Below are positions 38,125 through 64,000 of a stretch of 64,000 nt of DNA, one piece after another. The DNA is taken from assembly GCA_903880005.1 (NCBI GenBank), contig CAIRNV010000282.1, positions 1,354 through 65,353 of the forward strand, read 5' to 3'. This DNA comes from an uncultured Verrucomicrobiota bacterium. GTDB taxonomy: Bacteria > Verrucomicrobiota > Verrucomicrobiia > Limisphaerales > UBA9464. Made by a program: the position numbers and the translations under genes. Below the pieces are notes generated by a model, which was not told the DNA's origin, did not search any database, and saw only the letters and a list, made by a program, of their open reading frames with translations. Within the stretch, counting starts at the first letter, position 1. Each line of letters opens with the position of its first letter.

Positions 38125-38128
<4 letters not shown>
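35111..38128 (-). CDS. PSCyt1 + DUF1549 + DUF1553 protein (planctomycete-type cytochrome c / PSD family)
   Basis: Start at ATG 38128 (MRAPRGWMGTLLVMVAWVLPASGA). FQRDVRPILGQHCTACHGG is the heme site. The C-terminal third is DUF1553-like. The start overlaps the upstream stop (ATGA). Confidence 0.9.
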
Positions 38129-39624
<1,496 letters not shown>

Positions 39625-39684
39625 CGCAACTCCATCGTCACGGGCGAGGATTTTCTCAGCCGCACCACGGCGGGATTGTTCAGG

Positions 39685-47631: not shown

Positions 47632-48108
47632 GGACGAAACGCTACCCGGACGCGCAAAACACCGCGACACCCGATTGCTCCCCGACGCTGGGCAGGATTG
47701 CGGTAATCCCGCGGTGGCTGCATCGCGTGGGAGCGCATGTTGCCATGTGGGACGCCGCCCCATGCCACCGCCCTGCGGGACCCGTCAGCTTCCCGCTGCC
47801 CGCCCAGATCGCGCCAACAACTCCGGGATGCATGGAGGCGCCACATTCCGGCCGCGGTCAGAGTGGCAGCGGCATCCTGCCGCGGATCCATGCGGGGCAA
47901 GCGGATGGAAGCCGATTCCACTTTCACTCGGCCTGTGGATCACGGCTTCCGCCGGAAAACGCTCGGATGACTCGGGTGACACGGATGGGCTCAAGCCGGG
48001 AGGTTTCATCCATAGCGCATGCGCCCAGGCCCACGATCCGCCGCTTGCAGCCCGTTCCAATCCCACATGGAAATGAGGACAACGTCCTTGCGGCCAAGCC
48101 ACTCCACG

Positions 48109-49626
48109 TCAACCCGGGGGCTTCGACGCGGGACCGGCGGCACCGGCCGGAGGAGGAGGAGGCGCGGGCACGGTTCCCTGCGCCGGCGGGGCGTTGGTGG
48201 TCGGCGCGCCAAAGGACGCAGGAAGCTTGAGCTCGGTGCGAAGCCGGTCGCGAAACTCCGTGGACGTGCCCGACTGGGGATCCAACAGGCGGAGAAGGCT
48301 GTTGCGCTTGAGTTCGTCGAACGGTCCCAGGGGCAATCGCTTGACCGCGCTCTTGTGGGTGGTGCGGGCCTCGAAGTTGGAATGCACCCGCTGGGCCATC
48401 AGCATGAGGCCTTGGAACTGGTCGGCGTCGCCCTCCACGAGGTGGACGTAGGAGGCCTCGATGAGGCCCTCGACGATGGCCATGGAGCGGTCGCGGGAGG
48501 TTTCGCCGACGTCCTCCGTGATGCGGGACAGCGCGTAGTCCTCGAGGGTCCACTCGGCGGGGATGGCCGAGTTGGTGCCATAGGTGGAGCGGCAGTACTC
48601 GAACCACCTCCGGGCATCGCGTTGGCGATTGTAGGCGTAGAGGAAATACACGGCGTCCTTGAGGAAGTTGCGATGCGCGCGTTGGAAGCTGTCCTTCATG
48701 CCCTCCTCCTCCTCCGCGTCGATCTGGAGAAGGTAGGCGCGGGAGGCGTTGTCGATCATGTCCAGGTTGGGCGCGAACTGGATGCGTTGGGCGAGGGAAT
48801 TGGTGACGAGGCGACCGCGTTGGAAGGCCATCATCATGGGCTGGAAGATGTTCCGGCGGAGCATGCGGACGTCGCCCGCGCCGCGCCCGATCTTGAGGCC
48901 GCGCGTGGCCCAGTAGATGGCGTGGGTCTCGGGCAGTCGCCATTCGAGGGGGCCGTAGGTGTCATCGACCTCCTTCATGAGGGCGGGCTCCAGCTTGTAA
49001 CGCTCGACGAGCGTCTGGACGCGCTTCTTGTCGTCGTCTGAAACGGGCTTCAGCAAGACGTCGTAGTTGGGGCGCCCGCCCGGGAGCAGGGCCTGCATCT
49101 CCTCGGCCCAGTGGGCTTTGTAGGCGAGGTGGGCGTCGTCGAGGTTGGCCCCCATCTTGTGGTGGAAATGCCGGGCCAGCTCGGAATGAATGTCGATGGC
49201 GCGGGGGTTGTACTTGAGCCCTTCGTCGCGCAGCAGCTCGATGCCGCGCTGGACCCAAAGCCATCGGTCCTCGGGGTCCGGGAACTTGACCGAGATATTG
49301 TAGGAAAGGTTCCACGCGAGGTGGACCCACACGGCGGAGAAATGCGGCTGGAGCTTCGTGATCCAGTCGGCGAGCTGGACGGCCTCGAAGTGCTTGCCGT
49401 CGTCCTGGAGCTCCGTGGAACGAATCCAGAGGGCGTTGGCAATCAACCCGCGGAAACCGCCCAGGGCGACCGTGGTGAAGGCGAGCACGGGCGGGGCGTT
49501 GGACAACACCGCCGAGCGGGTGAGGCCCAGCTCGTCGCGGTCGCGATTCAGGCGGGCCTGGAAGAAGTGCCCGGCCACGACGGCGGCCACCGCGATGAAG
49601 ACCAAGAGTGCCTTGCGCGCGTTCAT
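48109..49626 (-). CDS. Conserved membrane-anchored protein of unknown function, last gene of the ABC/SPFH operon
   Basis: 505 aa. N-terminal TM MNARKALLVFIAVAAVVAG and a Pro-rich C-terminus. The start overlaps the upstream stop (ATGA at 49623-49626). No family recognised. Confidence 0.65.
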   Translation of the reverse strand: MNARKALLVFIAVAAVVAGHFFQARLNRDRDELGLTRSAVLSNAPPVLAFTTVALGGFRGLIANALWIRSTELQDDGKHFEAVQLADWITKLQPHFSAVWVHLAWNLSYNISVKFPDPEDRWLWVQRGIELLRDEGLKYNPRAIDIHSELARHFHHKMGANLDDAHLAYKAHWAEEMQALLPGGRPNYDVLLKPVSDDDKKRVQTLVERYKLEPALMKEVDDTYGPLEWRLPETHAIYWATRGLKIGRGAGDVRMLRRNIFQPMMMAFQRGRLVTNSLAQRIQFAPNLDMIDNASRAYLLQIDAEEEEGMKDSFQRAHRNFLKDAVYFLYAYNRQRDARRWFEYCRSTYGTNSAIPAEWTLEDYALSRITEDVGETSRDRSMAIVEGLIEASYVHLVEGDADQFQGLMLMAQRVHSNFEARTTHKSAVKRLPLGPFDELKRNSLLRLLDPQSGTSTEFRDRLRTELKLPASFGAPTTNAPPAQGTVPAPPPPPAGAAGPASKPPG

Positions 49627-51422
49627 GTGGGCATGGCGATCTCGCGCCGGGTGAAGATGAGCATCCCGGCCACCCCGAGCCCGCCGCCGGTGACGCCGAC
49701 GACCAAGGCGACGGCCCGGGCAAGCTCGGCCCAGGTGATGGATCGGCCGGTGGCCAACGCGTCCACGGGCGAGAAGGACGAGACCTGGTTGAGGATCCAA
49801 TAGGCGGTGCCGTACACGCGCACGGCGGCCTGGTTGACGAGGGAATTGGCGGACACGACGCCCGTCTCGTGGTTGATGCCCACCACCCCGCCCTGCTCCA
49901 CCACCTGCTTGAGCGTCCCGGACGACAACCCGATGACGAGCAAGCCCAGGGACAGGAAGGACGCGACCGGGAAGGACAAGAACGAGGCGGAGAAGAGTCC
50001 GATGGCCGTGAGGAGCCCGAGCCAAGCCAGGATCACGCACAGGCCCCGCGCGAAGTTCACGGCAAACGGGGCCTCGGGGCACAGCACCTGGATGCCTTCA
50101 TCCAGCGGGAACACCACCGTGAGCTTGCCCAGGTTGGCGTAACGCAGCGACAGGCTGCCGTCGGGCTCGATCAGATCGCCGGGGATCTCGAACTCGGAGG
50201 GGACGTCGGGGCCGAAGTTGTTGCTGAAACGCACGGGCCGCGCCTGGCGGACGTTGCCGATCTCCCAGCCGTGGTCGAAGGACGCGTCGAGTCCCACGTA
50301 TTCGGGGGTGAAGAACTTCACCCGGATGTAAAGCATGCGGCCCTTGAACTTCTCGCGGGCACCCGGCCCGAGGTTGAAGTCGAAGGGCACCGGACGGTAC
50401 TGCCCGGGCGCGACGGCCTGGAGCCGCCCCTCCAGTTGCGCGCGGACCTGCTTTCGGACGAACTCGGGGTTCATCTGCGCCACGGTGGGGTCGCGACGCC
50501 GCTTCTCGAACTCGCGCTCGGTCTCGGCTTCGAGATCAACGCGGGCGGCACGCATCGGCTCGCGGGCGACCAGGATTTCATTGCGGAGCTTGGCGAGCTG
50601 CGCCTCCGGGAGCTGCGCGGCGCGAACATGGAGCAGCCCGTACACGATGGTGCCTGCGATGGCGACCATGCCGACGTTGAGCGTCATGATGCCCAGCCAC
50701 TTGCCCAGCCAGACCTGCCAACGCGGGATGGGCTTCACCACGACGAGGAACAGGGACATGTCCTCGATGTCCCGCGCCAGGGTGCCGCACGCGAGCCACA
50801 GGCTGGAGAAGCCCAGCAGCGTCGTGATGGCCGTCAACGTGTACGCCAGGAGGATCTGGGAGAAGCCGGTGGCGGTGCCGTCGTGCTTGATGATCAACGG
50901 CAGCGCAAACACGGCGGCCACGAGGATGGCCAGCAACACCACCACGAGCTTGTACCGGAACGCCGCCTTGACCGTCAGCAACGCGACGGACAGCAACGGG
51001 CGCCAGGGCTTGGGCGCCACGTCGGGCACGCCGCCGACTTGCCGAGCCTTCCACTCCGGCAGCGGATCGCCGCCCACCTGCGCGAGCATGGCGATCGCGG
51101 TCGCCGCATCCCGGGCCGGGATCGTGCAGGCGTAGGCCAAGCCTCGCCTTTCGGCCGCCAGCTCGCGCAATGCCCGCGCGGAAAGGCCCACGAACAACCC
51201 CATGACCCCCTGCAACGCCACGTAGAATCCCCACGGGACGCGGTTGGCATACAGCACGCCCAGCAGAAGCCCATGGACCACGCCCAGGACCAAGCCCTCC
51301 ACCCACAGGCGCTGCATCAGGATCCACGCCCACGACAACAGGAACCCCGTCGGCGAAAACCCGAGGGGCACCGCCGCGCGGTTTCCCATGTCGTCCGTGT
51401 AGATCTCGAAGGAGCGCTTCAT
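49623..51422 (-). CDS. Large ABC-2-type transporter permease-like protein with extra N-terminal membrane module
   Basis: 599 aa with multiple TM spans. Positioned immediately after the ABC ATPase (18-nt gap). Family assignment rests on context and topology only. Confidence 0.65.
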   Translation of the reverse strand: MKRSFEIYTDDMGNRAAVPLGFSPTGFLLSWAWILMQRLWVEGLVLGVVHGLLLGVLYANRVPWGFYVALQGVMGLFVGLSARALRELAAERRGLAYACTIPARDAATAIAMLAQVGGDPLPEWKARQVGGVPDVAPKPWRPLLSVALLTVKAAFRYKLVVVLLAILVAAVFALPLIIKHDGTATGFSQILLAYTLTAITTLLGFSSLWLACGTLARDIEDMSLFLVVVKPIPRWQVWLGKWLGIMTLNVGMVAIAGTIVYGLLHVRAAQLPEAQLAKLRNEILVAREPMRAARVDLEAETEREFEKRRRDPTVAQMNPEFVRKQVRAQLEGRLQAVAPGQYRPVPFDFNLGPGAREKFKGRMLYIRVKFFTPEYVGLDASFDHGWEIGNVRQARPVRFSNNFGPDVPSEFEIPGDLIEPDGSLSLRYANLGKLTVVFPLDEGIQVLCPEAPFAVNFARGLCVILAWLGLLTAIGLFSASFLSFPVASFLSLGLLVIGLSSGTLKQVVEQGGVVGINHETGVVSANSLVNQAAVRVYGTAYWILNQVSSFSPVDALATGRSITWAELARAVALVVGVTGGGLGVAGMLIFTRREIAMPT

Positions 51423-51440
51423 GCGGCGGTGATGGCCGGG

Positions 51441-52685
51441 CTACTTCCTGTTCCCGCCCAGAAGGCCGGAAAGCTTGTCGTTGGCCTTCGCGATGTCGGC
51501 CGGGCTGGCCTCCGGACCCGGGCTCGCCGCGATGGCCGGGCCCGCGTCGGGCGTGGTCCCAGAGGCGGGCGCGGCAGGTTGGGAGAGGGATTCCAACCGT
51601 GCGACGTTGATGGCGGGCGCGACCGGCTCGGGGATGGAGGACAAAGTGGGTTCGGCGGCGGCCGATGGCTTCGAGAGCCGGTCCAGGACGGCCTCGGCCT
51701 GGGAGACGGGATTCTCGGCGGAACCACCGCGAATGAACTGGGCCACCTTGTTGCCGGACGTGGCGCCGCTGGTATCGCCCTGGGCGCGCGCCTTCTCGAC
51801 GACCTCGAGGAAGAAGCCCTCGAGGTTCTGCGTCGGGTTGTCGAGCCGCACCTTGTCGCCGCCCTCCGCCCGCAGGATGGCCAGGGCCTTCTCGGTCGTC
51901 TCGCGGGAGAGAATCGGCGCGGTGATGCGCACTTGGTCCGGCCGGGCGAGGAGGTCGTGGAGGGGGCCCTGGGCATGGATGCGACCGCCATAGTAGATGA
52001 CGACCCGGTCGCAAAGGTCCTCGACGTCGGCGAGGAGATGGGACGACAGGATGACGGTCTTCCCGCGGCGGGCGAGGGCCATGATGAGGTCCTTGACCTC
52101 GCGACAACCGAGGGGGTCGAGGCCGGCGGTGGGTTCGTCGAGGATGACCAAGTCCGGGTCATTGACGAGGGCCTGGGCGATGCCGATGCGGCGTTGCATG
52201 CCCTTGGAGAACTCGCCCACGGTCCGGGACCGGGCCTGGTTGAGTCCCACCATCTCGATCAACTGCTCCGTGCGGTTGCGGCGGTCGGAGGAGTCGAGCT
52301 GGAAGAGGGAGCCGAAGAAGTCGAGCGTCTCGCCGGGGTTGAGGTAGCGGTAGAGGTAGGATTCCTCCGGCAGATAGCCGATGCGTGCCTTGGTGCGAAC
52401 GTCGCGGGGGGATTGGTTGAAGACGGTGATGTGGCCCTTCGTGGGGTACAGCAACCCTAGGAGCATCTTGATGGTGGTGGACTTGCCGGAGCCATTCGGG
52501 CCCAGGAGGCCGAAGATCTCGCCGCGACGGATCTCGAAGTCCACGTTGTCCACCGCGCGGGCCTTGGGCCGTCCCCAGAAGTCCTTGAACACCTTGGTCA
52601 GGCCGACGGCCCGGACGACGACCTCGTCGGAGGGGGCGGGCCGTGCGGAGGGCGCGGCCGGAAGCGGGGCGGTGGGATGGGCCAT
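51441..52685 (-). CDS. ABC transporter ATP-binding protein with ~170-aa low-complexity C-terminal extension
   Basis: Walker A GPNGSGKST, signature-like FSKGMQRR, Walker B LVILDEPTAGLD. Confidence 0.9.
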   Translation of the reverse strand: MAHPTAPLPAAPSARPAPSDEVVVRAVGLTKVFKDFWGRPKARAVDNVDFEIRRGEIFGLLGPNGSGKSTTIKMLLGLLYPTKGHITVFNQSPRDVRTKARIGYLPEESYLYRYLNPGETLDFFGSLFQLDSSDRRNRTEQLIEMVGLNQARSRTVGEFSKGMQRRIGIAQALVNDPDLVILDEPTAGLDPLGCREVKDLIMALARRGKTVILSSHLLADVEDLCDRVVIYYGGRIHAQGPLHDLLARPDQVRITAPILSRETTEKALAILRAEGGDKVRLDNPTQNLEGFFLEVVEKARAQGDTSGATSGNKVAQFIRGGSAENPVSQAEAVLDRLSKPSAAAEPTLSSIPEPVAPAINVARLESLSQPAAPASGTTPDAGPAIAASPGPEASPADIAKANDKLSGLLGGNRK

Positions 52686-52718
52686 GGCGTGGGCGTTGGG
52701 TGGCGGGTGTCTCGGGCG

Positions 52719-54740
52719 TCAGGCCGATGCGAAGGCGGGCCGGGCCGGGGCCCCTCCGGCCGGCGCATCCGGGGCGGAGGCCGACGCGCCTTGGAAGGCT
52801 TCGAGTTCCTCGCCCATGCGTACGAGCCGGGCGGAGTTGAACACAACGATCAGGGATCCGGCGTTGTGCATGATGGCGGCGACAATGGGGTTGAGGTAGC
52901 CCAGCGCTGCGGCGGCGAGGCCCCCGATGATGAAGAACACGCCGAAGAGGAAGTTCTGGTTGATGACCGAGCGCGACATGCGGCTGAGGCGGACGAGGAA
53001 CGGGAGCCGCCGCAGGTCGTTGTTCATGAGCGCGATGGTGGCGGAGTTGACGGCCACCTCGGAGCCGGCCGCTCCCATGGCGATGGAGATGTCCCCGGCC
53101 GCCAGCGCGGGGGCGTCGTTCACGCCGTCGCCGATGACGGCCACGCGATGGCCCTTGGCCTTGGTCTGGCGGACGAACTCGACCTTGTCCTGCGGCAGGC
53201 ACTCGGCCACGACCTCCTCGATCCCGATCTCCTTGGCAACCCGGTCCGCGACGGGCTTGCGGTCGCCGGAAACCATGGCAACCCGGCGGATGCCGGCGTC
53301 GTGGAGGTCCTTCAGGGCGTCGGCGGCCTCGGGACGCGTCTGGTCCTGCAAGCCCACCCAGCCGATGCACTCGCCATCCGCCGCGACAAACAGCAGCGAG
53401 AACCCCGCCGTCTCGTCGAGGTCCACCGTCGAGGTGAAGCCGTCGCGAACGCCCTGGTCGCGCAGGAACGCGGCGCGACCGATGACCACGCGGCGCCCGT
53501 CCACCGTGGCCGAGACGCCCCGGCCGGCCGTCTCCTTGAAGTCCGTCACGGCGGCCAGCGGGACGCCCGCCTCGTCGGCCAGCTGAACCATGGCCCGCGC
53601 CGTCGGGTGATTGGAGTAGCGCTCGGCGGAGGCGGCTGCGCGCAGCAGGTCGGCGGCGGTCGTGGTGCCCACGGGATGGAGCCGCGACACCACCAGCTTC
53701 CCGGTGGTGAGCGTGCCGGTCTTGTCGAAGACGAAGGCGGAGATGCGGGCGGCCGCCTCGAGGTCGGCGATGTTCTTGACAAGGATGCCGAGCCGCGCGG
53801 CGGCCGACAGGGCGGCAACCATGGCGGTGGGCGTGGCCAGCACGAAGGCGCAGGGGCAGGCGACGACCACGACGGCGATGACGCGGTTGAGGTCGCGGGT
53901 GAAGGCCCAGACGAGGCCGGCGATGACGAGGACCAGGGGCGTGTAGTAGCCCATGTACTGGTCGATGATCCTCATGAACGGGAGCTTGGTCTTCTCCGCA
54001 GCCAGGATCAGCTCGCGGACGCGGCCGATGGTCGTGTCTTGGCCGGCCTTGGTGACGCGCACCTCCAACGCCCCGGTGAGGTTGATCGTCCCGGCGAACA
54101 CCTGGTCCCCGGGCCCCTTGTCCACGGGGAGGGATTCGCCCGTGATGTTCGCCTGGTTGATGGACCCCTGCCCCGACGCGATCTGGCCGTCGGCGGCGAT
54201 GTTGTCACCGGGCCGGACGAGGATGACGTCGCCGACGCGCAGCTCGGAGGCGGGCACCTCCTCCTCCTTGCTGCCGGACAAGCGCCGGGCCTTGGTGGGG
54301 GTGAGCTTGACGAGGGACTGGATGGAGGCGCGGGCACCGGCCGCCGTGCGGGTCTCGATCAACTCGCCCAGGAGCATGAAGAAGGCGACGATGCCGGCGG
54401 TCTTGAAGTCGCCGGTGACGGCCGACGCGAGGACGCCGAGGGCAACGAGCTCGTTGATCGAAAGGCGGCCGAGGCGCAGGTCCCTGAACGCGACCACCAG
54501 GATGGGCCACCCGAGGATGCACGCGCCGACCAGCGCGGAGAGCTCGCCGACGGTCGCGCCCTTGGCGAAGAACCAGTCCACGACGAACGAGTTGGCGACG
54601 AAGACGGCGCCCAGCAGCGTCTGCCAAAGGCGGACGTTCGTGTGGGAATGGTCGAGGCCGCCGTGGTCGTGGCCGCAATCGCACCCGGGCTCGTGCTTGG
54701 CGGGGTCGTTGTCGAGGCTGATGAGCGATGTGACTTGCAT
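52719..54740 (-). CDS. Heavy-metal-translocating P1B-type ATPase (CPC motif; His/Cys-rich N-terminus, no HMA domain)
   Basis: FDKTGTLT, VVACPCAFVLATP, GDGVNDAPAL and MHNAGSLIVVFNSARL. The N-terminus is HEPGCDCGHDHGGLDHSH. Metal specificity is not resolvable from the sequence alone. Confidence 0.9.
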   Translation of the reverse strand: MQVTSLISLDNDPAKHEPGCDCGHDHGGLDHSHTNVRLWQTLLGAVFVANSFVVDWFFAKGATVGELSALVGACILGWPILVVAFRDLRLGRLSINELVALGVLASAVTGDFKTAGIVAFFMLLGELIETRTAAGARASIQSLVKLTPTKARRLSGSKEEEVPASELRVGDVILVRPGDNIAADGQIASGQGSINQANITGESLPVDKGPGDQVFAGTINLTGALEVRVTKAGQDTTIGRVRELILAAEKTKLPFMRIIDQYMGYYTPLVLVIAGLVWAFTRDLNRVIAVVVVACPCAFVLATPTAMVAALSAAARLGILVKNIADLEAAARISAFVFDKTGTLTTGKLVVSRLHPVGTTTAADLLRAAASAERYSNHPTARAMVQLADEAGVPLAAVTDFKETAGRGVSATVDGRRVVIGRAAFLRDQGVRDGFTSTVDLDETAGFSLLFVAADGECIGWVGLQDQTRPEAADALKDLHDAGIRRVAMVSGDRKPVADRVAKEIGIEEVVAECLPQDKVEFVRQTKAKGHRVAVIGDGVNDAPALAAGDISIAMGAAGSEVAVNSATIALMNNDLRRLPFLVRLSRMSRSVINQNFLFGVFFIIGGLAAAALGYLNPIVAAIMHNAGSLIVVFNSARLVRMGEELEAFQGASASAPDAPAGGAPARPAFASA

Positions 54741-54797
54741 GGCTGGGAAGGAGCGGGGGTTGGGGGGGCGGCGGTTGCTTGACGGGATGGGCGTGGC

Positions 54798-55871
54798 TCA
54801 GCGTCCGGGCGACGGGGTGCGGACCTCGGGCTCGCGGCTCAGGTTGAGGCGGAGTTCATCCACGCGGCCGGGCTGAAAGAACTTGTCGGTGGCATTGGTC
54901 AGGACGCGCCCGATGGCCGCGATGCGAAGGCGCTCGCGGAGCAGGCGCGGGTTGTTGCGGTACTCGGGCAACTGCTGGGAGAAGAACTGGGCGTCGGCGG
55001 AGACGGCCTGCATGAGGGCGTTGCTCAGGGCCAGGCCGGTGTCGAGGGTCCGCTTGGCCTCGCCGCTCGCCTCGCGGGTGATGCGGTCAAACTCGCCCTG
55101 GGCCTCGTTGATCTTCTTGGACCGTTCCTGCTCGGCGGCGATGACGCTGTCGAAGTAGGCCTTCACGAACAAGGGCGCGGCGACCTCGACGTCGAGCGTG
55201 TCGAGGGAGACGCCCAGGCCATGCCGCTCGATGAGGTCGGCGACCCGGAGCCGGATGGCGTCGCGGAACTGGACGCGCTTCTTGTAGAGGGCGTCGTCGG
55301 CCGTGTGGCGGACGGCGGCCCAATGGATGGCGTTGTCGAGGGCCGAGCGCAGGAGGTTGGTGGCGTTGGAGAACTCGAACGTGTGCGCCACGGGGTTCGA
55401 GATGCGGTACCGCAGGGAGGCGCGGACGTGGAGGATGTTGCCATCGGACGTCAGCACGTGGCCATCGACGCCCGGCGCGAGCGACGGGTTGGCGGGCGGG
55501 GTGACGCCGGCCGCCTCCTCCTCCGGTGAGATGGCGTACCATGCCCGGGTGGACCGGATGACCTGCGACTCGCCGATGGGGATGCGGACGATCTCGTCGA
55601 TGGGATAGGGAAGCGCCCAGTGCAGGCCCTGGCGCTGGATGGCCTCGGCGCCCTCACCCACGACGCGGCCGAAGCGGAGCACGACGGCGACCTCGTTGGG
55701 GTTGACGGTGAAGACGCAGGAGAAGACCGCGGCTGCGGCAAGGATGCCGGACAGGATGCGGACGATGACGAGGGAGCTGCCCAGGGCCTCGGACAAGGCC
55801 TGCGACGAGGCGTCGTCCGAGGGCACCGGGTTGCCCGTGGGCCGGAGGTTGCCGGAGGTGGGGGCGCTCAT
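54798..55871 (-). CDS. SPFH/Band-7 domain protein, HflK-like
   Basis: Single N-terminal TM, then FTVNPNEVAVVLRFGRV, with a coiled-coil region AAEQERSKKINEAQGE. Confidence 0.8.
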   Translation of the reverse strand: MSAPTSGNLRPTGNPVPSDDASSQALSEALGSSLVIVRILSGILAAAAVFSCVFTVNPNEVAVVLRFGRVVGEGAEAIQRQGLHWALPYPIDEIVRIPIGESQVIRSTRAWYAISPEEEAAGVTPPANPSLAPGVDGHVLTSDGNILHVRASLRYRISNPVAHTFEFSNATNLLRSALDNAIHWAAVRHTADDALYKKRVQFRDAIRLRVADLIERHGLGVSLDTLDVEVAAPLFVKAYFDSVIAAEQERSKKINEAQGEFDRITREASGEAKRTLDTGLALSNALMQAVSADAQFFSQQLPEYRNNPRLLRERLRIAAIGRVLTNATDKFFQPGRVDELRLNLSREPEVRTPSPGR

Positions 55872-55876
55872 GGCGG

Positions 55877-56800
55877 TTAGCGTCCGGCGGACGGACGGAC
55901 GACGGGGAGGTTGGTGAGCATGTCGCCCTTCAGCAGGTTGAAGGGCGGCGTGCGCTCGTCGAGGATGAGGGTCGAGCGGTCCTTCAACGACCCCTCCAAC
56001 GAGCGGAGCGAGAGGAGGAACACGGCCAGCTCAGGGTCCTGCTGCATCACCCGGTAATGCTGGGTCGCCTCGGCCTCGGCCTCGCCGTAGATCTTCTGGG
56101 CCTGGTTCTCCGCCTCGGCCACGAGCTTCTTGCGCTGCAAGTCGGCCTCCGAACGGATGCGGTCGGCCTCGGCGTTGCCCTCGCCCTGGTACTTCTTCAC
56201 GAGCTTCTCGCGCTCGGTCTTCATGCGCTCGAAGACCTTGCTGGTGAGCGACTCGGGCAGGCCCAGCTCCTTGATCCCCACCATCTGGATGGCGATGCCA
56301 TACGCGGACAACGCCGTCCCGGCCATGGCCGCCCGCATCTCGCCCTCGATCACGTCGAACTTCACCTGCTCGGGGTTCGGGGAGATGAGGTCCGTGAAGT
56401 CATGGCTGCCGATGACGGAGTTCTTGGCGTCTCGGACGACGTTCTCGAGCGCCTGCTCGGCCTTGAGCAGGTCCCCATTGAACGACTCCAGGAAGCGGCG
56501 CGGGTCGGCGATGCGCCACCCGACATAGATGGAGAGGATGGGCGACTTCTTGTCGCGGGTGAACTGCTGCTCGTACTTGCGCTCGAAGCTCTGCAGGCGC
56601 TTGTCGAACTTGTATACCTTCTGGATGGGCAACGGGGCCCGGAAATAGAGGCCGGCGTTCGTGTAGCTGTTCGCGTAGCGACCAAACGTGGTCACGACGG
56701 CGACCTCCGTGGTCCGCACCTGGAAGCAAAACAGCAGGGCGAGGAACACGACGAGCAACATGCCGCCAACCAGCAGCGTGAGGGGGTTCTTCTTCTTCAT
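55877..56800 (-). CDS. SPFH/Band-7 domain protein, HflC-like
   Basis: MKKKNPLTLLVGGMLLVVFLALLF, VRTTEVAVVTTFGR and a coiled-coil EREKLVKKYQGEGNAEADRI. Confidence 0.85.
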   Translation of the reverse strand: MKKKNPLTLLVGGMLLVVFLALLFCFQVRTTEVAVVTTFGRYANSYTNAGLYFRAPLPIQKVYKFDKRLQSFERKYEQQFTRDKKSPILSIYVGWRIADPRRFLESFNGDLLKAEQALENVVRDAKNSVIGSHDFTDLISPNPEQVKFDVIEGEMRAAMAGTALSAYGIAIQMVGIKELGLPESLTSKVFERMKTEREKLVKKYQGEGNAEADRIRSEADLQRKKLVAEAENQAQKIYGEAEAEATQHYRVMQQDPELAVFLLSLRSLEGSLKDRSTLILDERTPPFNLLKGDMLTNLPVVRPSAGR

Positions 56801-56837
56801 CGGGAAAACTTCGGGTTCAGGGTGCGAGGGTCGTGGG

Positions 56838-58748
56838 TCACTTCTTCTCGTCGCCGCGCTTCACGGGTTCCAAGGGGGTGTCCAGCAGGTCGCGGCGCAA
56901 CTTCTCGGTCAGGTCGAGGATGACGACGTCATGCGTGTTCGTGGGCAGGACGACATACTTGCGGGTGGATGCCAGGGTGGTGCGCAGGGTCTCGAGGTAG
57001 TTGCGCGCCGGGTACACGTCGGGCGCGGCCTTGAAGGCGGCCACCTGGTGGACGAACCGCGCCGAGCGGCCTTGGGCGTCGTTCACGAGCCCCGAGGCCC
57101 CCGCCTTCGCCGCATTCACCGTCCGCGACGCCGTGGCACGCGCGGCGGGAAGGGTCTCGTTCGCGTAGCCCTCCGCCTCCAGGATGCGCGCCTCGCGCTC
57201 CTGCTCCGCGCCGATGACCTGCTCGTAGGATGCCGCCACGCGATGGTCCTTGTTGCCCATGGGCGGGTGAATGTCCTGCAACCCCACGAAGATGATCTCG
57301 GACCCCAACCCCGCGCTGGCCGACGCCTCCTGGATGCGCGCACGCAGCACGCGGGCGGCCTCGCCCCGCCCGCTGGACATCAACGTGTCGATGTCCACCG
57401 ACGCGAGGTACCGGACCACCTCGCGGTTGGCGACCTGCTCGAGCAACCGCGCGGGCTCGACGTGGTTGTAGGCCCACTGCTGGGCGTTGGTGACCACGAA
57501 CTGCACCGGGATGGAGACCGTCAGCAGGTTGGCCGGCACCGTCTGGTCCGTGTCGCCAGCCGCCGCCTGCTCGCGCGACGCCACCAGCAGGTTGAACTCC
57601 GTCTTGTAGTGAGGCCGCGTCCACAGGACGGTGTTGTCCTTCTCCAAGTTGGCGTCGGGCACGAAGCCCACGTTGAACGACTGCACCGCGCGCGTGTTGA
57701 TCCGCTGCACCGAGTCGATCGGCCACGGCAGCTTGAGGTGAAGCCCAGGGTCCAGCGTGGCCACCGGCGTCCCAAAGCGCTCCTGCAAGCCCTGCTCGCC
57801 CGGGTCGATGACCACCAACGCCGTCGAAAGCCACAGGGCCCCAGCCTGCGCGAGGACCAGCCATGCGATGGCCCCCTCCAGGAACCGGTAGAACCATGTC
57901 TCGCTGACCTTGAACCCGAACTGGTAGTCCAAGGCCTGCGCCGCAGTCGAAAACAACCCCGTGGGCTGGCCCAGGATGCCCACCAGGCGGCTCTCGTAAA
58001 TCAACCGCTGCTCCCGCCCCTTGACCCGCGGCCGGTACGCCTCGAACACCAGCGCGATGAGCGTCTCCAAGGCGATCAACCCCAGCAACACCACCGCCCC
58101 CATCGTCACGTGCCGGTCCCACGCCGGGTAGCTCGCATACGTCGCCACGCCCGTGCCCGCCGCCATGAACGACACCAACGCCCCCAACACCAAGTGGGAC
58201 GCCCCCGGGCGCACCAACGTCAGCGACGCATAACGCGCCAGCTTCGACGCGTACAACCCCAGCAACAGCAGCACCAACCCCATCCCCGCGAACGACGCGC
58301 TCGCCAGCATCGCGCGATCTGCCCCCGGCGCCGACCAACCCTTCCACGCCCGCCAGAACCACCACGCCGCCCCCGCCTGGCCTGCGAACAGCAACACGGT
58401 GAACCCCGGCACCACCCAACGCTCGAACGAGCGCCGCGCCCGTTGCGCCGGGAAGGCGTCCGCCGCCGATTCCGCAAACAGGGACGAGTCGGACCGCCTC
58501 CGGGCCAGGTCCTCCATCTCAACGCGCTCGGCCTCCTCGCGCGCGGCGAGGCGCATCTGGAACCAGCTCACCAAGGCCACCAACGCCCCCAGCATCAGGA
58601 GGGCCGCCGCGACCTCGCCGGCGGACGAGCCGGCCAGTCGCGAGAGCACCTCGGCCACCACCGCCGCCAGCAGCAGCGCCAAGAAGTTGGTCAGGCCCGT
58701 CCGGTTGAATTGCGCATCCATGGTTCCGAAAATTCCCTCCTCCCGCAT
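56838..58748 (-). CDS. Polytopic membrane domain (~300 aa) fused to a third SPFH/Band-7 domain
   Basis: Start at ATG 58748, with a 1-nt overlap (TGATG) onto the upstream stop. At least 6 hydrophobic spans, then VVIDPGEQGLQERFG...LKLPWPIDSV and GAEQEREARILEAEGYA. Confidence 0.75.
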   Translation of the reverse strand: MREEGIFGTMDAQFNRTGLTNFLALLLAAVVAEVLSRLAGSSAGEVAAALLMLGALVALVSWFQMRLAAREEAERVEMEDLARRRSDSSLFAESAADAFPAQRARRSFERWVVPGFTVLLFAGQAGAAWWFWRAWKGWSAPGADRAMLASASFAGMGLVLLLLGLYASKLARYASLTLVRPGASHLVLGALVSFMAAGTGVATYASYPAWDRHVTMGAVVLLGLIALETLIALVFEAYRPRVKGREQRLIYESRLVGILGQPTGLFSTAAQALDYQFGFKVSETWFYRFLEGAIAWLVLAQAGALWLSTALVVIDPGEQGLQERFGTPVATLDPGLHLKLPWPIDSVQRINTRAVQSFNVGFVPDANLEKDNTVLWTRPHYKTEFNLLVASREQAAAGDTDQTVPANLLTVSIPVQFVVTNAQQWAYNHVEPARLLEQVANREVVRYLASVDIDTLMSSGRGEAARVLRARIQEASASAGLGSEIIFVGLQDIHPPMGNKDHRVAASYEQVIGAEQEREARILEAEGYANETLPAARATASRTVNAAKAGASGLVNDAQGRSARFVHQVAAFKAAPDVYPARNYLETLRTTLASTRKYVVLPTNTHDVVILDLTEKLRRDLLDTPLEPVKRGDEKK

Positions 58749-59707
58749 CAGCCCAGCTCGCGTTCCTCGAACAACAGCAACGCGCACGACAACGCCACGG
58801 TGACGACCGTCGCCGCATATCCCGCCGCACGGCCCACGTAGGCCCAAGGAATCCGTCCCTTGTCCTCCAACGCCTCCGCCAGGTAGAGCTGCTGCCAGTT
58901 CGGCGTCAGGTCGTACAAGACCTGCGCCCACCACGCCCCGCCCTGCGCCGGCCGCAGGAACAGGTAGTCCGAGACCAGCCCGATCCCGAAGAACGCCAGG
59001 CACACCGCCAGCGTCGGGATCGTGTCCAGCCTCGTGGAGCACGCCAACGCCAGCGCGGCGATCATCCACAGCGCGAACAAGATCAACACCACGGCCGGCA
59101 GCAGCCTCCAGTCTGCCGCCGCCATCTCCCCGAACGCGAGCTGCTTCTGCGTCCCAAACGTCACCCACGCCGCCGCGCCCGTCGTCAACGCCATCCACGC
59201 CGCCACCGCGTCCGCCACGAAGACCCGCCGCAGGAAGAAGTTGAGGAAGCCCGCCACCCCATACGCGCCCAGTCCCGCCCCGTAGTACATGGCCAAAGCC
59301 TGCACGTCCGTGTCCCCGTACGCATCAAACGCCATCCAGCTGGACAGCAAGCCCGCCACCAGGTTGGAGCCCGTCAACAACGTCAGCGTCCCCGCCAGCC
59401 CCGCGTACTTGCCCAGGATGAAGGTCCCTCGCCCCACCGGCTTCGCGAGCACCGTCAGGGCCGTTCCCGACCGGATCTCCTGGGCCACGGACGACGAGGC
59501 GCACAGCACCGCCCCCAGCAACCCCGCCAGCAACGTCACCGCCAGGGCCATGTCCTTCACCAGCTTCGGGTCCTCTCCCAGCCCGAAATACGGCACCGCC
59601 GCGAGGAAGACGATGAAGGAACCCGACGAAGTCAGGAGCAGCAGGTAAATAGGCTGCCGCACCAACTCCATGAAGGCATTCACTGCAATCGTGAGAAACG
59701 GACGCAT
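58748..59707 (-). CDS. ABC-2-type transporter permease (NosY/COG1277-like)
   Basis: 319 aa and polytopic. AQEIRSGTALTVLAKPVGRGTFILGKY is typical of ABC-2 permeases. There is no adjacent ATPase gene. Confidence 0.75.
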   Translation of the reverse strand: MRPFLTIAVNAFMELVRQPIYLLLLTSSGSFIVFLAAVPYFGLGEDPKLVKDMALAVTLLAGLLGAVLCASSSVAQEIRSGTALTVLAKPVGRGTFILGKYAGLAGTLTLLTGSNLVAGLLSSWMAFDAYGDTDVQALAMYYGAGLGAYGVAGFLNFFLRRVFVADAVAAWMALTTGAAAWVTFGTQKQLAFGEMAAADWRLLPAVVLILFALWMIAALALACSTRLDTIPTLAVCLAFFGIGLVSDYLFLRPAQGGAWWAQVLYDLTPNWQQLYLAEALEDKGRIPWAYVGRAAGYAATVVTVALSCALLLFEERELG

Positions 59708-59911
59708 GCGCTCGGCGGAAACTGTGTGGCCTCGATCATACAGACACCCCCCGACGGGTCAATCGACGGTTGCTTCCCGCCTGCGGGCGGCCCGTTCCGC
59801 CGTTTTGCAGGCCACGTACCCTCACGCCGCGCGCCCCTGGGACCGCGCCCGTCCCCGGGCGCAGACTCCGGCCAAGCGGCCGGGGACGGCCGCGCTCCCA
59901 GGCCATGACGC

Positions 59912-60868
59912 TCACGCCCCACGCGTGCCATCGGCACCCGTCTTCACGCCGGCCGCGAGCAACGTCTCGAAGTGCGGCGGCTCGTCCTCGCGTGACACCA
60001 CGCTGACCTCGATGGAGACAAACCCGGCCTGCTCCAGCCATCGCTGCAAGTCGGCCGAGGCGAACCCCAGCCACCGGTCCCCGTACCGTTCGCGGGCCTG
60101 TTCAAACCGGTGCTGGACCAAGTCGAGGACCAGGACCTGTCCACCGGGCCGCAGGATCCGATGCGCCGCGCGGACCGCCTGGGCGGGGTCGTCCGCGTGA
60201 TGCAAGGCATGGCTCAGGATCGCCACGTCCACGCTCGCGTCGGCAACGGGCGGCCGCATGATGTCACCGAGGCGGAACTCGAGGTTCGTCATCCCGTTTT
60301 GACGCGCCTTGCGGGTCCCGAACTCCACCATGCGTTCCGAGTTGTCCACGGCGATGACCCGGCGGCAACGATGCGCCAGGAGCTCGGCCACCAAGCCCTC
60401 GCCCGACCCAAGGTCCGCGACGTCGAGGGGCGGCAACATGCGAAGCAGCAAGTGTCCCAGCGCCTGCCAAGAGCGGCCGGGCCCGTAGATGCGGTCGAAC
60501 CGGCCCGCCACGTGGTTGAAGTAGGCCTGGGCGCGCTCCTCGCGCAGCGCCAGGACCCGCCGAAGGTTGACGAGGTCCGACTCGCGCTCCGGAAGCTCGG
60601 ACGCCCCCTTGGCGGCGGATGCCACCAAGGCATCCAGCCCGCCCGGAAGCCCCGCGCAAAGGGCGTAGAAGCTGCGGCGGCCGTCCTTCCGCAACGCAAC
60701 CAACCCGGCTTCTGTCAACAGCCCGAGGTGCGTCGAGATGCGCGACTGCCCCAGCCGCGTGACCTCCTGCATCTCGTTCACCGACAACTCGCCCGCGCCC
60801 AGCAACGCGACGAGCCGCAGGCGCGTCGGGTCGGACAATGCACGCAAGGCCTTGAGGGTGTCGCCCAT
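59912..60868 (-). CDS. ArsR-family HTH regulator fused to a class I SAM-dependent methyltransferase
   Basis: LSDPTRLRLVALLGAGELSVNEMQEVTRLGQSRISTHL (ArsR HTH), then VADLGSGEGLVAELLA and RPGGQVLVLD (methyltransferase motifs). Confidence 0.85.
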   Translation of the reverse strand: MGDTLKALRALSDPTRLRLVALLGAGELSVNEMQEVTRLGQSRISTHLGLLTEAGLVALRKDGRRSFYALCAGLPGGLDALVASAAKGASELPERESDLVNLRRVLALREERAQAYFNHVAGRFDRIYGPGRSWQALGHLLLRMLPPLDVADLGSGEGLVAELLAHRCRRVIAVDNSERMVEFGTRKARQNGMTNLEFRLGDIMRPPVADASVDVAILSHALHHADDPAQAVRAAHRILRPGGQVLVLDLVQHRFEQARERYGDRWLGFASADLQRWLEQAGFVSIEVSVVSREDEPPHFETLLAAGVKTGADGTRGA

Positions 60869-61093
60869 ATCGAGGCCATCGTTCGGTCCTTCGGCCCCCG
60901 TTTCAAGCCCACCCTCCGTCCACCCACCGCCGGCGGATTGCACAGGGTTGCGGTGTTGGTGACTCGAATGCCGCCCATGGGATGAAAGAGGGAAGAAACG
61001 AGGTTGAAACCGATCTCATTCCTGTAACCCGTCCCATCCCTTCCGCCTCACCACCAGCAGCTTGGGAAGGCGATCCTCCGCACTTCCCACGCA

Positions 61094-63084: not shown

Positions 63085-64000
<916 letters not shown>

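What the first reader, a model, noticed from the sequence alone, without database searches (positions are those of the whole stretch)
48109..60868. Eight-gene tightly packed operon mixing two ABC-2 permeases, three SPFH (HflK/C-like) paralogues, a P1B metal ATPase and an ABC ATPase, behind an ArsR-methyltransferase fusion
Seen in sequence: eight genes run on the minus strand from 59707 to 48109, with junctions of a 1-nt overlap (TGATG at 58748), 37, 5, 57, 33 and 18 nt, and a 4-nt overlap (ATGA at 49623-49626). The order is ABC-2 permease, polytopic-membrane/SPFH fusion, HflC-like, HflK-like, CPC-type P1B ATPase with a His/Cys-rich N-terminus instead of an HMA domain, ABC ATPase with a long low-complexity tail, a 599-aa permease-like protein, and a 505-aa unknown protein. 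The first permease has no adjacent ATPase; the only ABC ATPase lies 6 kb downstream in the same run. An ArsR-HTH/SAM-methyltransferase fusion ends 204 nt upstream on the same strand. Established knowledge: HflK/C-type SPFH proteins form membrane cages or microdomains around partner proteins, classically FtsH, and ArsR regulators sense metals or metalloids. Inference: this looks like a single membrane machine in which an SPFH scaffold with three paralogues is coupled to a metal pump and an ABC exporter. No FtsH or NfeD gene is present. Two members have no recognisable family.
Basis: partly seen in the sequence, partly recalled or inferred. Interest (0 to 1): 0.55.

Follow-up and report, generated by a model that had tools for sequence, protein, structure and literature searches.

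The report
Conserved SPFH, metal-pump, ABC-exporter operon
An eight-gene block that joins three HflK/HflC-type membrane-scaffold proteins, a heavy-metal P-type pump and an ABC exporter keeps the same gene order in hundreds of Verrucomicrobiota genomes, which suggests a scaffold whose clients are transporters rather than the FtsH protease; no paper describing it was found.

Summary
Eight genes run head to tail on the minus strand from 59707 to 48109, with the stated junctions and family assignments. One correction: the second gene most likely starts at 58721, not 58748.

The block is not a chance arrangement. A relative of the long SPFH gene occurs in at least 570 species-level genomes. All eight genes were colinear in 54 of 84 fetched loci. 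Another 25 loci are cut by contig ends, and 5 stop after the pump. The same order persists in lineages with only 28-36% identity, always with different flanking genes.

A sigma-70-like promoter sits 28 nt upstream of the first gene and is footprinted across relatives. The ArsR-methyltransferase gene was found in none of 84 loci, so it is an incidental neighbour.

Best reading: two HflK-type and one HflC-type SPFH proteins form a scaffold. One of them carries a 6-TM domain and an invariant cytoplasmic motif. The scaffold would organise a CPx-type P1B ATPase and an ABC-2 exporter with two permeases, one ATPase and a new membrane-anchored alpha-helical protein. Physical association, the transported metal and the ABC substrate are inferred, not shown.

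The five-gene core (G1-G5) is more stable than the three-gene ABC module. I rate this a new variant of a known kind, of moderate to high interest.

The parts
59735..59762 (-). Sigma-70-like promoter TTGACC-16 nt-TATGAT, 28 nt upstream of the G1 ATG, followed by a conserved CCACACAGT
   Evidence: It is the only promoter-like site found in 47500-61200. The -35 box, the -10 box and the downstream 9-mer are invariant in L004-L010 while the surrounding bases diverge, and they recur in many further loci. Similarity to the closest relative begins at 59771.
58748..59707 (-). G1: 319-aa polytopic membrane protein, a divergent ABC-2-type permease
   Evidence: ABC2_membrane_4 matches 23 of 25 family members (best E 6e-6) and ABC2_membrane_2 matches 13 of 25 (1.5e-7). 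Its C-terminal half is homologous to that of G7 (hhalign probability 89%, E 2e-6). It is present in 81 of 84 loci, and the 3 without it start inside or at G2.
56838..58721 (-). G2: long HflK-type SPFH protein of 627 aa. It has an N-terminal 6-helix membrane domain, an invariant cytoplasmic juxtamembrane motif (YRPRVKGRE..LDYQFGFKVSETWFY), a TM helix, and then an SPFH and coiled-coil part. An alternative start lies at 58748.
   Evidence: Band_7 E 3.7e-19. HflK of 7vhp_E E 5e-25 over residues 381-608. Motif from the alignment. AF2 model of residues 1-315, pLDDT 74.5. The N-domain matches 880 representative clusters, and the full-length ones are 590-770 aa, so it is always fused.
55877..56800 (-). 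G3: HflC-type SPFH protein, 307 aa, with one N-terminal TM helix
   Evidence: TIGR01932 hflC 143.7 bits, above the 134.4 cutoff. HflC of 7vhp_G E 3e-31.
54798..55871 (-). G4: short HflK-type SPFH protein, 357 aa, with one TM helix. It starts 5 nt after G3.
   Evidence: TIGR01933 hflK 135.6 bits, below the 159.4 cutoff. HflK of 7vhp_E E 4e-25. It is 23% identical to the SPFH half of G2.
52719..54740 (-). G5: P1B-type (CPx) heavy-metal ATPase, 673 aa. It has a His/Cys-rich N-terminus, CPC in TM4 and MHNAGS in TM6.
   Evidence: TIGR01525 559 bits. The best solved relative is the P1B-4 pump sCoaT, 7qbz, E 2e-100. DKTGT, TGES, GDGVND and HP motifs are present. Across the family CPC occurs in 65 of 72, an MQVTSL start in 59 of 72, and H(N/V/T/S)xG(S/A) in TM6. 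It is present in 76 of 76 loci with room.
51441..52685 (-). G6: ABC ATPase of 414 aa, DrrA/GldA-like. It has a low-complexity tail with a conserved TSGATSGNKVAQF box and a semi-conserved C-terminal peptide.
   Evidence: ABC_tran E 6e-33. drrA, GldA and NodI models score below their cutoffs. Conservation profile.
49623..51422 (-). G7: ABC-2-type permease of 599 aa with a large loop between TM helices. A DUF2628 N-terminal extension is present in only part of the family.
   Evidence: ABC2_membrane_2 matches 23 of 25 members (best E 1.4e-9) and DUF2628 matches 11 of 25.
48109..49626 (-). G8: 505-aa protein with no family. It has an N-terminal TM helix, a highly conserved hydrophobic segment and an all-alpha domain. 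Its start overlaps the G7 stop (ATGA).
   Evidence: No Pfam or NCBIfam hit. All 120 listed homologues are unnamed or called 'hypothetical'. AF2 pLDDT 84.7, pTM 0.76. Foldseek finds only weak TPR-like matches, TM-score at most 0.26. No hit to any PDB sequence profile.

Best explanation
This is a self-promoted, deeply conserved eight-gene operon of Verrucomicrobiota; the closest relatives are Limisphaerales-type MAGs. It most likely encodes one inner-membrane assembly. G3 (HflC-type) would pair with two HflK-type paralogues, G4 (short) and G2 (long), to form an HflK/C-like SPFH ring or cage on the periplasmic face, fencing off a membrane patch. G2 would act as the adaptor. Its extra 6-helix membrane domain and its invariant cytoplasmic motif lie on the same side as the pump's cytoplasmic domains and its conserved N-terminal peptide (MQVTSL..., followed by a His/Cys-rich stretch). 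Through these, G2 would recruit or stabilise the CPx-type P1B ATPase G5, which exports a transition-metal cation from the cytoplasm. The second module is an ABC-2 exporter. G6 is the ATPase, G7 and probably G1 are a pair of unlike permeases, and G8 is a membrane-anchored accessory subunit whose start codon overlaps the G7 stop codon, which suggests translational coupling. This exporter would work in or beside the same patch. Shown here: gene content, gene order, its conservation, the promoter footprint, family assignments and motifs. Inferred: physical association, cage formation, the adaptor role of G2, the metal transported and the ABC substrate.
For: Tight junctions occur in the window and across loci, with median gaps of 22, 38, 7, 32, 57, 15 and 0 nt. 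All eight genes are colinear in 54 of 84 loci. Of the rest, 25 are cut by contig ends and 5 have G1-G5 only. G5 follows the SPFH trio in 76 of 76 loci with room. The same order holds in distant lineages L087, L088 and L089 at 28-36% (G2) and 29-35% (G8) identity. Flanks differ everywhere, and nucleotide similarity to the closest relative (85.6%) spans exactly 59771-48176. At least 570 species-level genomes encode a G2 relative, and the G2 N-domain matches 880 clusters at 50% identity, always in proteins long enough for the fusion. The promoter upstream of G1 is conserved. The three SPFH paralogues are ancient and distinct at 23% identity or less, as expected for a hetero-oligomer. G3/G4/G2 match HflC/HflK of the solved FtsH-HflKC cage. 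G1 and G7 are both ABC-2 permeases with homologous C-terminal halves, and only one ATPase is present. Exploratory rate covariation groups G3-G4 (0.68) and G1-G5-G6-G7 (0.41-0.58), with G2 in between. As precedent, mycobacterial P1B ATPases need dedicated membrane scaffold proteins (PacL) that bind their N-terminal domains and cluster them in membrane domains (PMC13460109).
Against: There is no direct evidence of any protein-protein contact, of a single transcript or of a metal response. P1B ATPases have almost no periplasmic mass, unlike FtsH, so the known mode of client capture by HflK/C cannot simply be transferred. The G5|G6 junction is loose: the gap exceeds 300 nt in 15 of 59 loci, toxin-antitoxin cassettes are inserted there, and G6-G8 is absent in 5 loci. 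The ABC module therefore need not be a stoichiometric part. The TM4 motif drifts to CPS, CPV or CPT and the His-rich N-terminus is lost in distant lineages, so the substrate is not fixed. Whether these genomes carry another hflKC pair for FtsH could not be checked. The covariation analysis has no significance test and is confounded by shared phylogeny.
Confidence: 0.5

Rival explanations
1. The genes form a co-regulated operon or gene neighbourhood of inner-membrane housekeeping proteins that act independently: an SPFH microdomain organiser, a metal efflux pump and an ABC-2 exporter. They share expression but form no common complex.
For: Conserved order shows selection for co-expression or co-inheritance, not contact. 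The two-module behaviour and the toxin-antitoxin insertions at G5|G6 show the halves can be separated. Rate covariation splits the SPFH pair G3/G4 from the transporter genes.
Against: Gene order retained down to about 30% identity, with every flank reshuffled, is unusual for unrelated functions. G1, a permease, always sits upstream of the SPFH genes, about 6 kb from its presumed ATPase. That interleaves the ABC system with the SPFH and pump genes. G2 carries a family-specific membrane domain and an invariant cytoplasmic motif found only in this context.
Confidence: 0.27
2. G2/G3/G4 are this lineage's ordinary HflK/HflC modulators of the FtsH protease, and FtsH is encoded elsewhere. The neighbouring transporters are FtsH substrates or simply linked genes.
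For: G3 passes the NCBIfam HflC equivalog cutoff. The best structural relatives are HflK and HflC from the FtsH-HflKC cage. Public annotation calls the G2 homologues HflK or HflC. hflK and hflC are not next to ftsH in E. coli either (general knowledge).
Against: G2 and G4 score below the HflK equivalog cutoff. A third paralogue with a 6-TM domain has no counterpart in the canonical system. No FtsH signature was found within 10 kb in any of 89 loci. The pump follows the trio in 76 of 76 loci with room, which argues for a dedicated partner.
Confidence: 0.13
3. The P-type ATPase here is not mainly a detoxifying metal exporter. The cluster instead serves metalation or biogenesis of an envelope component: the pump supplies a metal and the ABC-2 system with G8 exports or assembles the acceptor, loosely like CopA2/FixI or NosDFY-type maturation systems.
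For: The cluster looks like conserved core-genome content rather than an accessory resistance island. No conserved metal sensor is linked to it. In L087 a YHS-domain gene lies between the G7-like and G8-like genes, and in L058 a ferritin gene follows G5. The TM4 motif varies (CPC, CPS, CPV), as expected for specialised rather than broad detoxifying pumps.
Against: No candidate acceptor metalloprotein is conserved in or next to the cluster. The NosF, NosY and NosD models were not among the hits.
Confidence: 0.1

Closest known systems
E. coli HflK/HflC-FtsH cage (PDB 7vhp, 7wi3)
   Same: G3 matches HflC, and G4 and G2 match HflK, over the SPFH and coiled-coil parts (E 3e-31 to 5e-25). G3 and G4 each have one N-terminal TM helix. 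The genes for the unlike subunits are adjacent.
   Different: There are three paralogues instead of two. One of them carries a 300-aa polytopic domain. The gene order is long K, then C, then short K. No ftsH, hfq or hflX is linked. The conserved neighbours are transporters.
PacL-Ctp 'effluxosomes' of Mycobacterium tuberculosis (PMC13460109)
   Same: The concept is the same: a P1B ATPase is encoded beside dedicated membrane scaffold proteins that bind its N-terminal region, stabilise it and cluster it in membrane domains. CtpC also combines CPC in TM4 with an H-N dyad in TM6.
   Different: The scaffold here is SPFH-type, not PacL (DUF6110), and no PacL-like protein was detected. An ABC-2 exporter is added. 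The phylum differs. Nothing has been tested experimentally.
P1B-4 ATPase sCoaT (PDB 7qbz) and the P1B-6-like CtpC
   Same: sCoaT is the best solved relative and aligns over nearly the full length (E 2e-100). Both lack an HMA domain and have a His-rich N-terminus. The histidine in TM6 is aligned.
   Different: TM4 is CPC rather than SPC or SCA. TM6 is H-N-A-G-S rather than H-E-G-S-T. The N-X18-H-N-X-(S/T) spacing quoted for P1B-6 is not reproduced. The pump fits none of the defined subgroups cleanly.
SPFH-NfeD operons (stomatin/QmcA-YbbJ, FloA-NfeD) and the three-SPFH operon PaFlo5-7 of P. aeruginosa (PMC2636767, PMC13086221)
   Same: SPFH genes sit in conserved operons with partner genes, and several SPFH paralogues can share one operon.
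   Different: There is no NfeD gene here. The partners are a P-type ATPase and an ABC transporter, a combination not mentioned in those surveys.
ABC-2 exporters with accessory subunits (DrrAB, GldAFG, NatAB, NosDFY)
   Same: G6 is closest to the DrrA, GldA and NodI ATPase models. G1 and G7 fall in the ABC2_membrane_2/4 families. An extra membrane-anchored subunit, G8, is encoded next to the permease.
   Different: All equivalog cutoffs are missed. There are two unlike permeases encoded 6 kb apart. The ATPase has a long tail. G8 has no relative among the known accessory proteins.

Membership tests
HflK/HflC (SPFH) FtsH modulators | SPFH/Band_7 domain followed by a coiled-coil region, homologous to HflK or HflC | tested here: met
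   Band_7 E 1e-19 to 1e-24 for G2, G3 and G4. PDB HflC and HflK matches.
HflK/HflC (SPFH) FtsH modulators | Score above the curated equivalog cutoff (TIGR01932 hflC, TIGR01933 hflK) | tested here: inconclusive
   G3 scores 143.7 against a cutoff of 134.4 and passes. G2 (138.3) and G4 (135.6) fall below the 159.4 cutoff and fail.
HflK/HflC (SPFH) FtsH modulators | Single N-terminal TM anchor and a two-subunit K+C system | tested here: not met
   G2 has about 7 TM helices, and there are three paralogues.
HflK/HflC (SPFH) FtsH modulators | Binds and modulates the FtsH protease | not testable with these tools
   No FtsH signature lies within 10 kb in 89 loci. The rest of these genomes could not be searched.
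P1B-type heavy-metal ATPase | DKTGT phosphorylation site, TGES, GDGxNDxP, HP motif and a CPx motif in TM4 | tested here: met
   Residues 339, 200, 537, 377 and 295. TIGR01525 559 bits against a cutoff of 346.
P1B-4 subgroup (Co/Zn/Cd/Fe; sCoaT, CzcP, PfeT) | SPC in TM4 and HEGxT in TM6 | tested here: not met
   CPC and MHNAGS are found instead, although sCoaT is the best PDB match.
P1B-2 subgroup (Zn/Cd/Pb; ZntA) | CPC in TM4, with a conserved Lys in TM5 and DxG in TM6 (motifs from my own knowledge) | tested here: not met
   CPC is present, but TM5 (INQNFLFG...) has no Lys and TM6 has no Asp.
P1B-6 subgroup (as quoted in PMC13460109) | SCA in TM4 (CPC in CtpC) and N-X18-H-N-X-(S/T) across TM5-TM6 | tested here: inconclusive
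   An H-N dyad is present (HNAGS). However, Ser is at +4, not +3, and the Asn-His spacing is 7 or 28 residues, not 18, when read from the sequence.
ABC-2 type exporter | Nucleotide-binding subunit with Walker A, signature, Walker B and H-loop motifs | tested here: met
   ABC_tran E 6e-33. GPNGSGKST, SKGMQ, ILDEPT and SSH are visible in the sequence.
ABC-2 type exporter | Permease belonging to the ABC2_membrane families | tested here: met
   The window proteins score below the Pfam cutoffs. Even so, 23 of 25 G1 relatives and 23 of 25 G7 relatives hit these models, with best E values of 1.5e-7 and 1.4e-9.
SPFH-NfeD operon | An NfeD gene adjacent to the SPFH gene | tested here: not met
   No NfeD hit among the nine proteins, nor in the gene tables of related loci.
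PacL-Ctp effluxosome | A PacL (DUF6110) single-pass scaffold encoded beside the ATPase | tested here: not met
   No such Pfam hit. The resemblance is functional analogy only.
ArsR/SmtB-regulated metal operon | Regulator gene conserved next to the regulated operon | tested here: not met
   The ArsR-methyltransferase gene is found in none of 84 loci, and similarity ends at 59771.
Cation diffusion facilitator (for the G2 N-domain) | Six-TM fold with (H/D)xxxD metal sites in TM2 and TM5, and a Cation_efflux Pfam match | tested here: not met
   Only weak fold resemblance: ZnT3 E 0.057 with TM-score 0.47, plus YiiP and ZnT1. There is no Pfam hit and no such motif in the alignment.

The most novel reading that the evidence does not exclude
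This would be a previously unrecognised kind of SPFH assembly: a three-subunit HflK/HflC-type cage that is genetically hard-wired to transporters rather than to a protease. The long HflK paralogue would use its 6-TM domain and its invariant cytoplasmic LDYQFGFKVSETW motif to dock a P1B metal pump. An ABC-2 exporter would share the enclosed membrane patch. It would be an SPFH-based counterpart of the mycobacterial effluxosome, conserved across a whole bacterial lineage.
Probability: 0.35. Interest if true: 0.8.

Novelty: new variant of a known kind. Interest (0 to 1): 0.6.

Why it matters
SPFH proteins (stomatin, prohibitin, flotillin, HflK/C) are now known to form cages. Outside the FtsH and m-AAA protease cases, their clients and purpose are largely unknown. 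Here evolution has held three SPFH genes, a metal pump and an ABC exporter in one order across hundreds of species. That names candidate clients directly and makes the question 'what do SPFH cages enclose and why' testable by co-purification or cryo-EM. It also extends the recent idea that P1B metal pumps work inside dedicated scaffolded membrane platforms to a second, unrelated scaffold type and phylum. Finally, it defines three uncharacterised families: the G2 N-domain, G8, and an atypical CPC/HN P1B subgroup.

Tried and rejected
1. ArsR-methyltransferase as regulator of the cluster: rejected, because it is not conserved (0 of 84 loci) and the cluster has its own promoter.
2. Mobile element or genomic island: no flanking direct or inverted repeats beyond chance, G+C is the same as the surroundings, and plasmids hold only ordinary HflK.
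3. Anti-phage defence system: PADLOC gave only generic ABC-ATPase similarity for G6.
4. Riboswitch or other known RNA in the leader or in the gaps: no Rfam match at E up to 0.1.
5. Intrinsic terminators or internal promoters: the four terminator-like hits all lie inside coding sequence and are fewer than the shuffles give; no internal promoter-like site was found.
6. G2 N-domain as a CDF zinc transporter: there is only a weak fold resemblance (TM-score 0.47) and no motifs, so I keep it as a lead only.
7. G8 as a known fold or family: nothing specific was found by PDB profile search or Foldseek.
8. Linked FtsH: no signature in 1.54 Mb of window and loci.
10. Literature searches for an SPFH + P-type ATPase + ABC cluster, or for HflK in Verrucomicrobia, found nothing relevant.
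11. The mirror-tree style covariation is exploratory and I do not treat it as proof.

Full report
**Observation.**
The window has about 68% G+C. ORF listing, translation and a third-position G+C filter confirm a run of genes on the minus strand:
- ArsR-HTH/methyltransferase, 59912-60868
- G1, 58748-59707
- G2, 56838-58721 or 56838-58748
- G3, 55877-56800
- G4, 54798-55871
- G5, 52719-54740
- G6, 51441-52685
- G7, 49623-51422
- G8, 48109-49626

The only correction concerns G2. Its homologues are 627-631 aa and align from the ATG at 58721, and AGGAGG lies upstream of that ATG. The TGATG overlap at 58748 is therefore probably not used. Downstream lies a class I tRNA synthetase gene (46651-47763). 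Upstream lies a divergent AraC-type gene (61094-62014).

**What the genes are.**
- **SPFH proteins.** Pfam and NCBIfam and PDB sequence searches show that G3 is HflC-type: TIGR01932 scores above its cutoff, and 7vhp_G matches at E 3e-31. G4 and the C-terminal half of G2 are HflK-type: 7vhp_E matches at about 1e-25, and TIGR01933 scores just below its cutoff. The three are ancient paralogues. The SPFH half of G2 is 23% identical to G4, and G3 against G4 is marginal.
- **G2 N-terminal part.** G2 carries about 300 extra N-terminal residues. The AF2 model (pLDDT 74.5) shows six long helices. A low-confidence but sequence-invariant segment follows (YRPRVKGRE..RLIYESRLIGLLGQPTGLFSTAAQALDYQFGFKVSETWFY), and then the HflK-type TM helix. 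By the positive-inside rule and the known periplasmic location of HflK SPFH domains, I infer that this segment is cytoplasmic.
- **G5.** It is a complete P1B ATPase with DKTGT, TGES, GDGVND, HP and CPC at residue 295. It has no HMA domain and carries a His/Cys-rich N-terminus. Its best solved relative is the P1B-4 pump sCoaT (7qbz, E 2e-100). However, TM4 is CPC, not SPC, and TM6 is MHNAGS, not HEGST. It matches neither P1B-1, P1B-2 nor P1B-4. It shares only the H-N dyad with the P1B-6 signature quoted in PMC13460109.
- **G6.** It is a DrrA/GldA-like ABC ATPase. Its tail holds a conserved TSGATSGNKVAQF box and a semi-conserved C-terminal peptide.
- **G1 and G7.** Both score below the Pfam cutoffs on their own. 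Even so, 23 of 25 relatives of each hit ABC2_membrane models. Their C-terminal halves are homologous (hhalign probability 89%). Only one ATPase gene is present, so a pair of unlike permeases is the simplest reading.
- **G8.** It has no family. Its model (pLDDT 84.7) is an N-terminal TM helix plus an all-alpha domain with only weak TPR-like matches.

**Is it a unit?**
A pattern scan of one genome per GTDB species found at least 570 genomes encoding a G2 relative. The best 80 are nearly all labelled Verrucomicrobiota, and the few other labels look like mis-binned MAGs. I ran tblastn with all window proteins against 84 loci:
- 54 loci have all eight genes colinear on one strand.
- 25 loci are truncated by contig ends.
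- 5 loci have G1-G5 followed by more than 5.7 kb of unrelated genes.
- G5 follows the SPFH trio in 76 of 76 loci with room.
- The ArsR-methyltransferase gene and the tRNA synthetase gene occur in none of the 84.

Neighbouring genes differ from locus to locus. Even for the closest relative (L005, 85.6% nucleotide identity), similarity spans exactly 59771-48176 and stops at both ends.

The N-domain of G2 matches 880 clusters in the 50%-identity representative library. The full-length hits are 590-770 aa, so the fusion is the rule. Distant members keep the same eight genes in the same order (L087, L088, L089; 28-36% identity for G2 and 29-35% for G8). A second copy in one MAG (L085) keeps G1-G5 and a G7-like gene but lacks G6. 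A Planctomycetes-labelled contig (L086) has G1-like and G2-like genes side by side before the contig ends.

Median intergenic gaps across loci are 22, 38, 7, 32, 57, 15 and 0 nt. Only the G5|G6 junction is loose: its gap exceeds 300 nt in 15 of 59 loci. In those loci it hosts Fic/Doc, HicAB or DUF4160/DUF2442 cassettes. The block is therefore a five-gene core (G1-G5) with a usually attached three-gene ABC module (G6-G8). G1 links the two modules.

**Regulation.**
The only sigma-70-like site in 47500-61200 is TTGACC-16 nt-TATGAT at 59762-59735, 28 nt upstream of G1. The -35 box, the -10 box and a following CCACACAGT are invariant among relatives whose surrounding sequence has diverged. More distant clades carry a different but equally placed motif pair. 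No Rfam family matches. No credible internal terminator or promoter was seen. The ArsR-type domain lacks the cysteine pair of the classical metal site; this is my reading of the sequence, ELSVNEM where ELCVCDL is expected. The ArsR gene is therefore an incidental neighbour.

**Mechanism proposed.**
By analogy with the solved HflK/C cage, I propose that G3 alternates with G4 and G2 in a periplasmic SPFH ring that fences off a membrane patch. The extra membrane domain and invariant cytoplasmic motif of G2 are the best candidates for holding a client. The best client candidate is G5. It always follows the trio, it is the most conserved protein of the block (median 70.5% identity), and it has a nearly invariant N-terminal peptide (MQVTSL in 59 of 72) ahead of the His/Cys-rich stretch. 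In M. tuberculosis, PacL scaffold proteins bind the N-terminal domains of the P1B ATPases CtpC, CtpG and CtpV, stabilise them and cluster them in membrane domains called effluxosomes (PMC13460109). That is the closest functional precedent, although the scaffold there is unrelated. The ABC-2 exporter (G6, G7, G1) and G8 would act in or beside the same patch. Exploratory rate covariation groups G3-G4 (0.68) and G1-G5-G6-G7 (0.41-0.58), with G2 in between. All contacts, the metal and the ABC substrate are inferences. The TM4 motif drifts (CPS, CPV, CPT) and the His-rich N-terminus disappears in distant lineages, so the specificity may not be uniform.

**Rivals.**
- Co-expression without a complex. 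The separable G6-G8 module supports this. The interleaving of G1 with the SPFH genes, and the context-specific domain of G2, weaken it.
- Ordinary HflKC acting on an FtsH encoded elsewhere. This is possible because I could not search whole genomes. It is weakened by the third paralogue, the failed HflK cutoffs and the obligatory pump neighbour. No FtsH signature lies within 10 kb in 89 loci.
- A metalation or biogenesis role rather than detoxification. The hints are a YHS-domain gene in L087, a ferritin gene in L058, and the lack of any linked sensor.
- Defence system, mobile island and plasmid origin were all rejected.

**Novelty.**
Surveys of prokaryotic SPFH operons describe NfeD partners, and one describes a three-SPFH operon in P. 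aeruginosa. Neither mentions a P-type ATPase or ABC partner. Full-text searches for this combination found nothing. Public annotation calls the G2 homologues HflK or HflC and the G8 homologues hypothetical. I rate this as a new variant of a known kind: an SPFH scaffold with dedicated partners, and a scaffolded P1B pump. It includes three uncharacterised protein families. Interest is moderate to high, because it offers a genetically defined client set for an SPFH assembly.

Noticed in passing
L009 14458-15727; L016 11928-12574; L023; L028; L037; L072; L073; L083; L026 9587-10371; L022 7437-8373; L047 16067-16708: The G5|G6 intergenic gap is a recurrent insertion site for small toxin-antitoxin-like cassettes of at least three families: Phd-like/Fic-Doc, HicA/HicB and DUF4160/DUF2442. 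In the window this gap is only 33 nt (52686-52718).
   Followed up: partly
L085 and L087 (both from assembly GCA_029260735.1): One MAG carries two diverged copies of the cluster. One is complete. The other has G1-G5 followed directly by a G7-like gene, with no ABC ATPase.
   Followed up: partly
L087 18801-19052: An 83-aa YHS-domain (PF04945) gene sits between the G7-like and G8-like genes of a distant cluster. YHS domains are putative metal-binding modules often found with copper ATPases.
   Followed up: no
L058 16123-16617: In one of the five loci that lack G6-G8, a ferritin gene (PF00210, E 4e-44) directly follows the P1B ATPase.
   Followed up: partly
window 59713-59721 (minus strand), and the same position in L004-L042: A 9-mer, CCACACAGT, 6-7 nt downstream of the -10 box is conserved as strongly as the promoter hexamers. 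Together with CTGTAT in the -10 region it forms an imperfect inverted repeat. It could be the transcription start region or an operator.
   Followed up: partly
L085, L087, L089 (ATPase TM4): The TM4 metal motif of the cluster's ATPase is CPS or CPV in distant lineages and CPT in one closer locus. Those distant proteins lack the His-rich N-terminus, so the transported ion may differ between lineages.
   Followed up: partly
L005, L011, L012, L015, L030, L033, L035; L048, L051, L075: Several MAG records carrying the cluster are labelled Akkermansia, Haliangiales, Limnocylindria or Proteobacteria. Their cluster genes are typical of the Limisphaerales-type family, and the window's own G+C is 68%. 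This suggests taxonomic mislabelling or mis-binning in public records.
   Followed up: no
window 47764-48108: There is a 345-nt gap between G8 and the tRNA synthetase gene. It contains a 105-aa ORF (47785-48102) with no Pfam match. The gap is not conserved in the closest relatives, whose similarity ends at 48176.
   Followed up: partly
window 38125-39684, 63085-63930, 62065-62955: The window holds two DUF1501 genes and a gene with a prepilin-type N-terminal methylation motif. By my own knowledge this gene content is typical of the Planctomycetota-Verrucomicrobiota group.
   Followed up: no
window 57834-58721 (G2 N-domain, model m25c0edc03622): The top Foldseek hits for the six-helix domain are cation-diffusion-facilitator zinc transporters (ZnT3, YiiP, ZnT1, ZnT8), with TM-scores of 0.4-0.48 and E of 0.06 or worse. 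This is intriguing next to a metal pump, but it is unsupported by motifs or by sequence models.
   Followed up: partly
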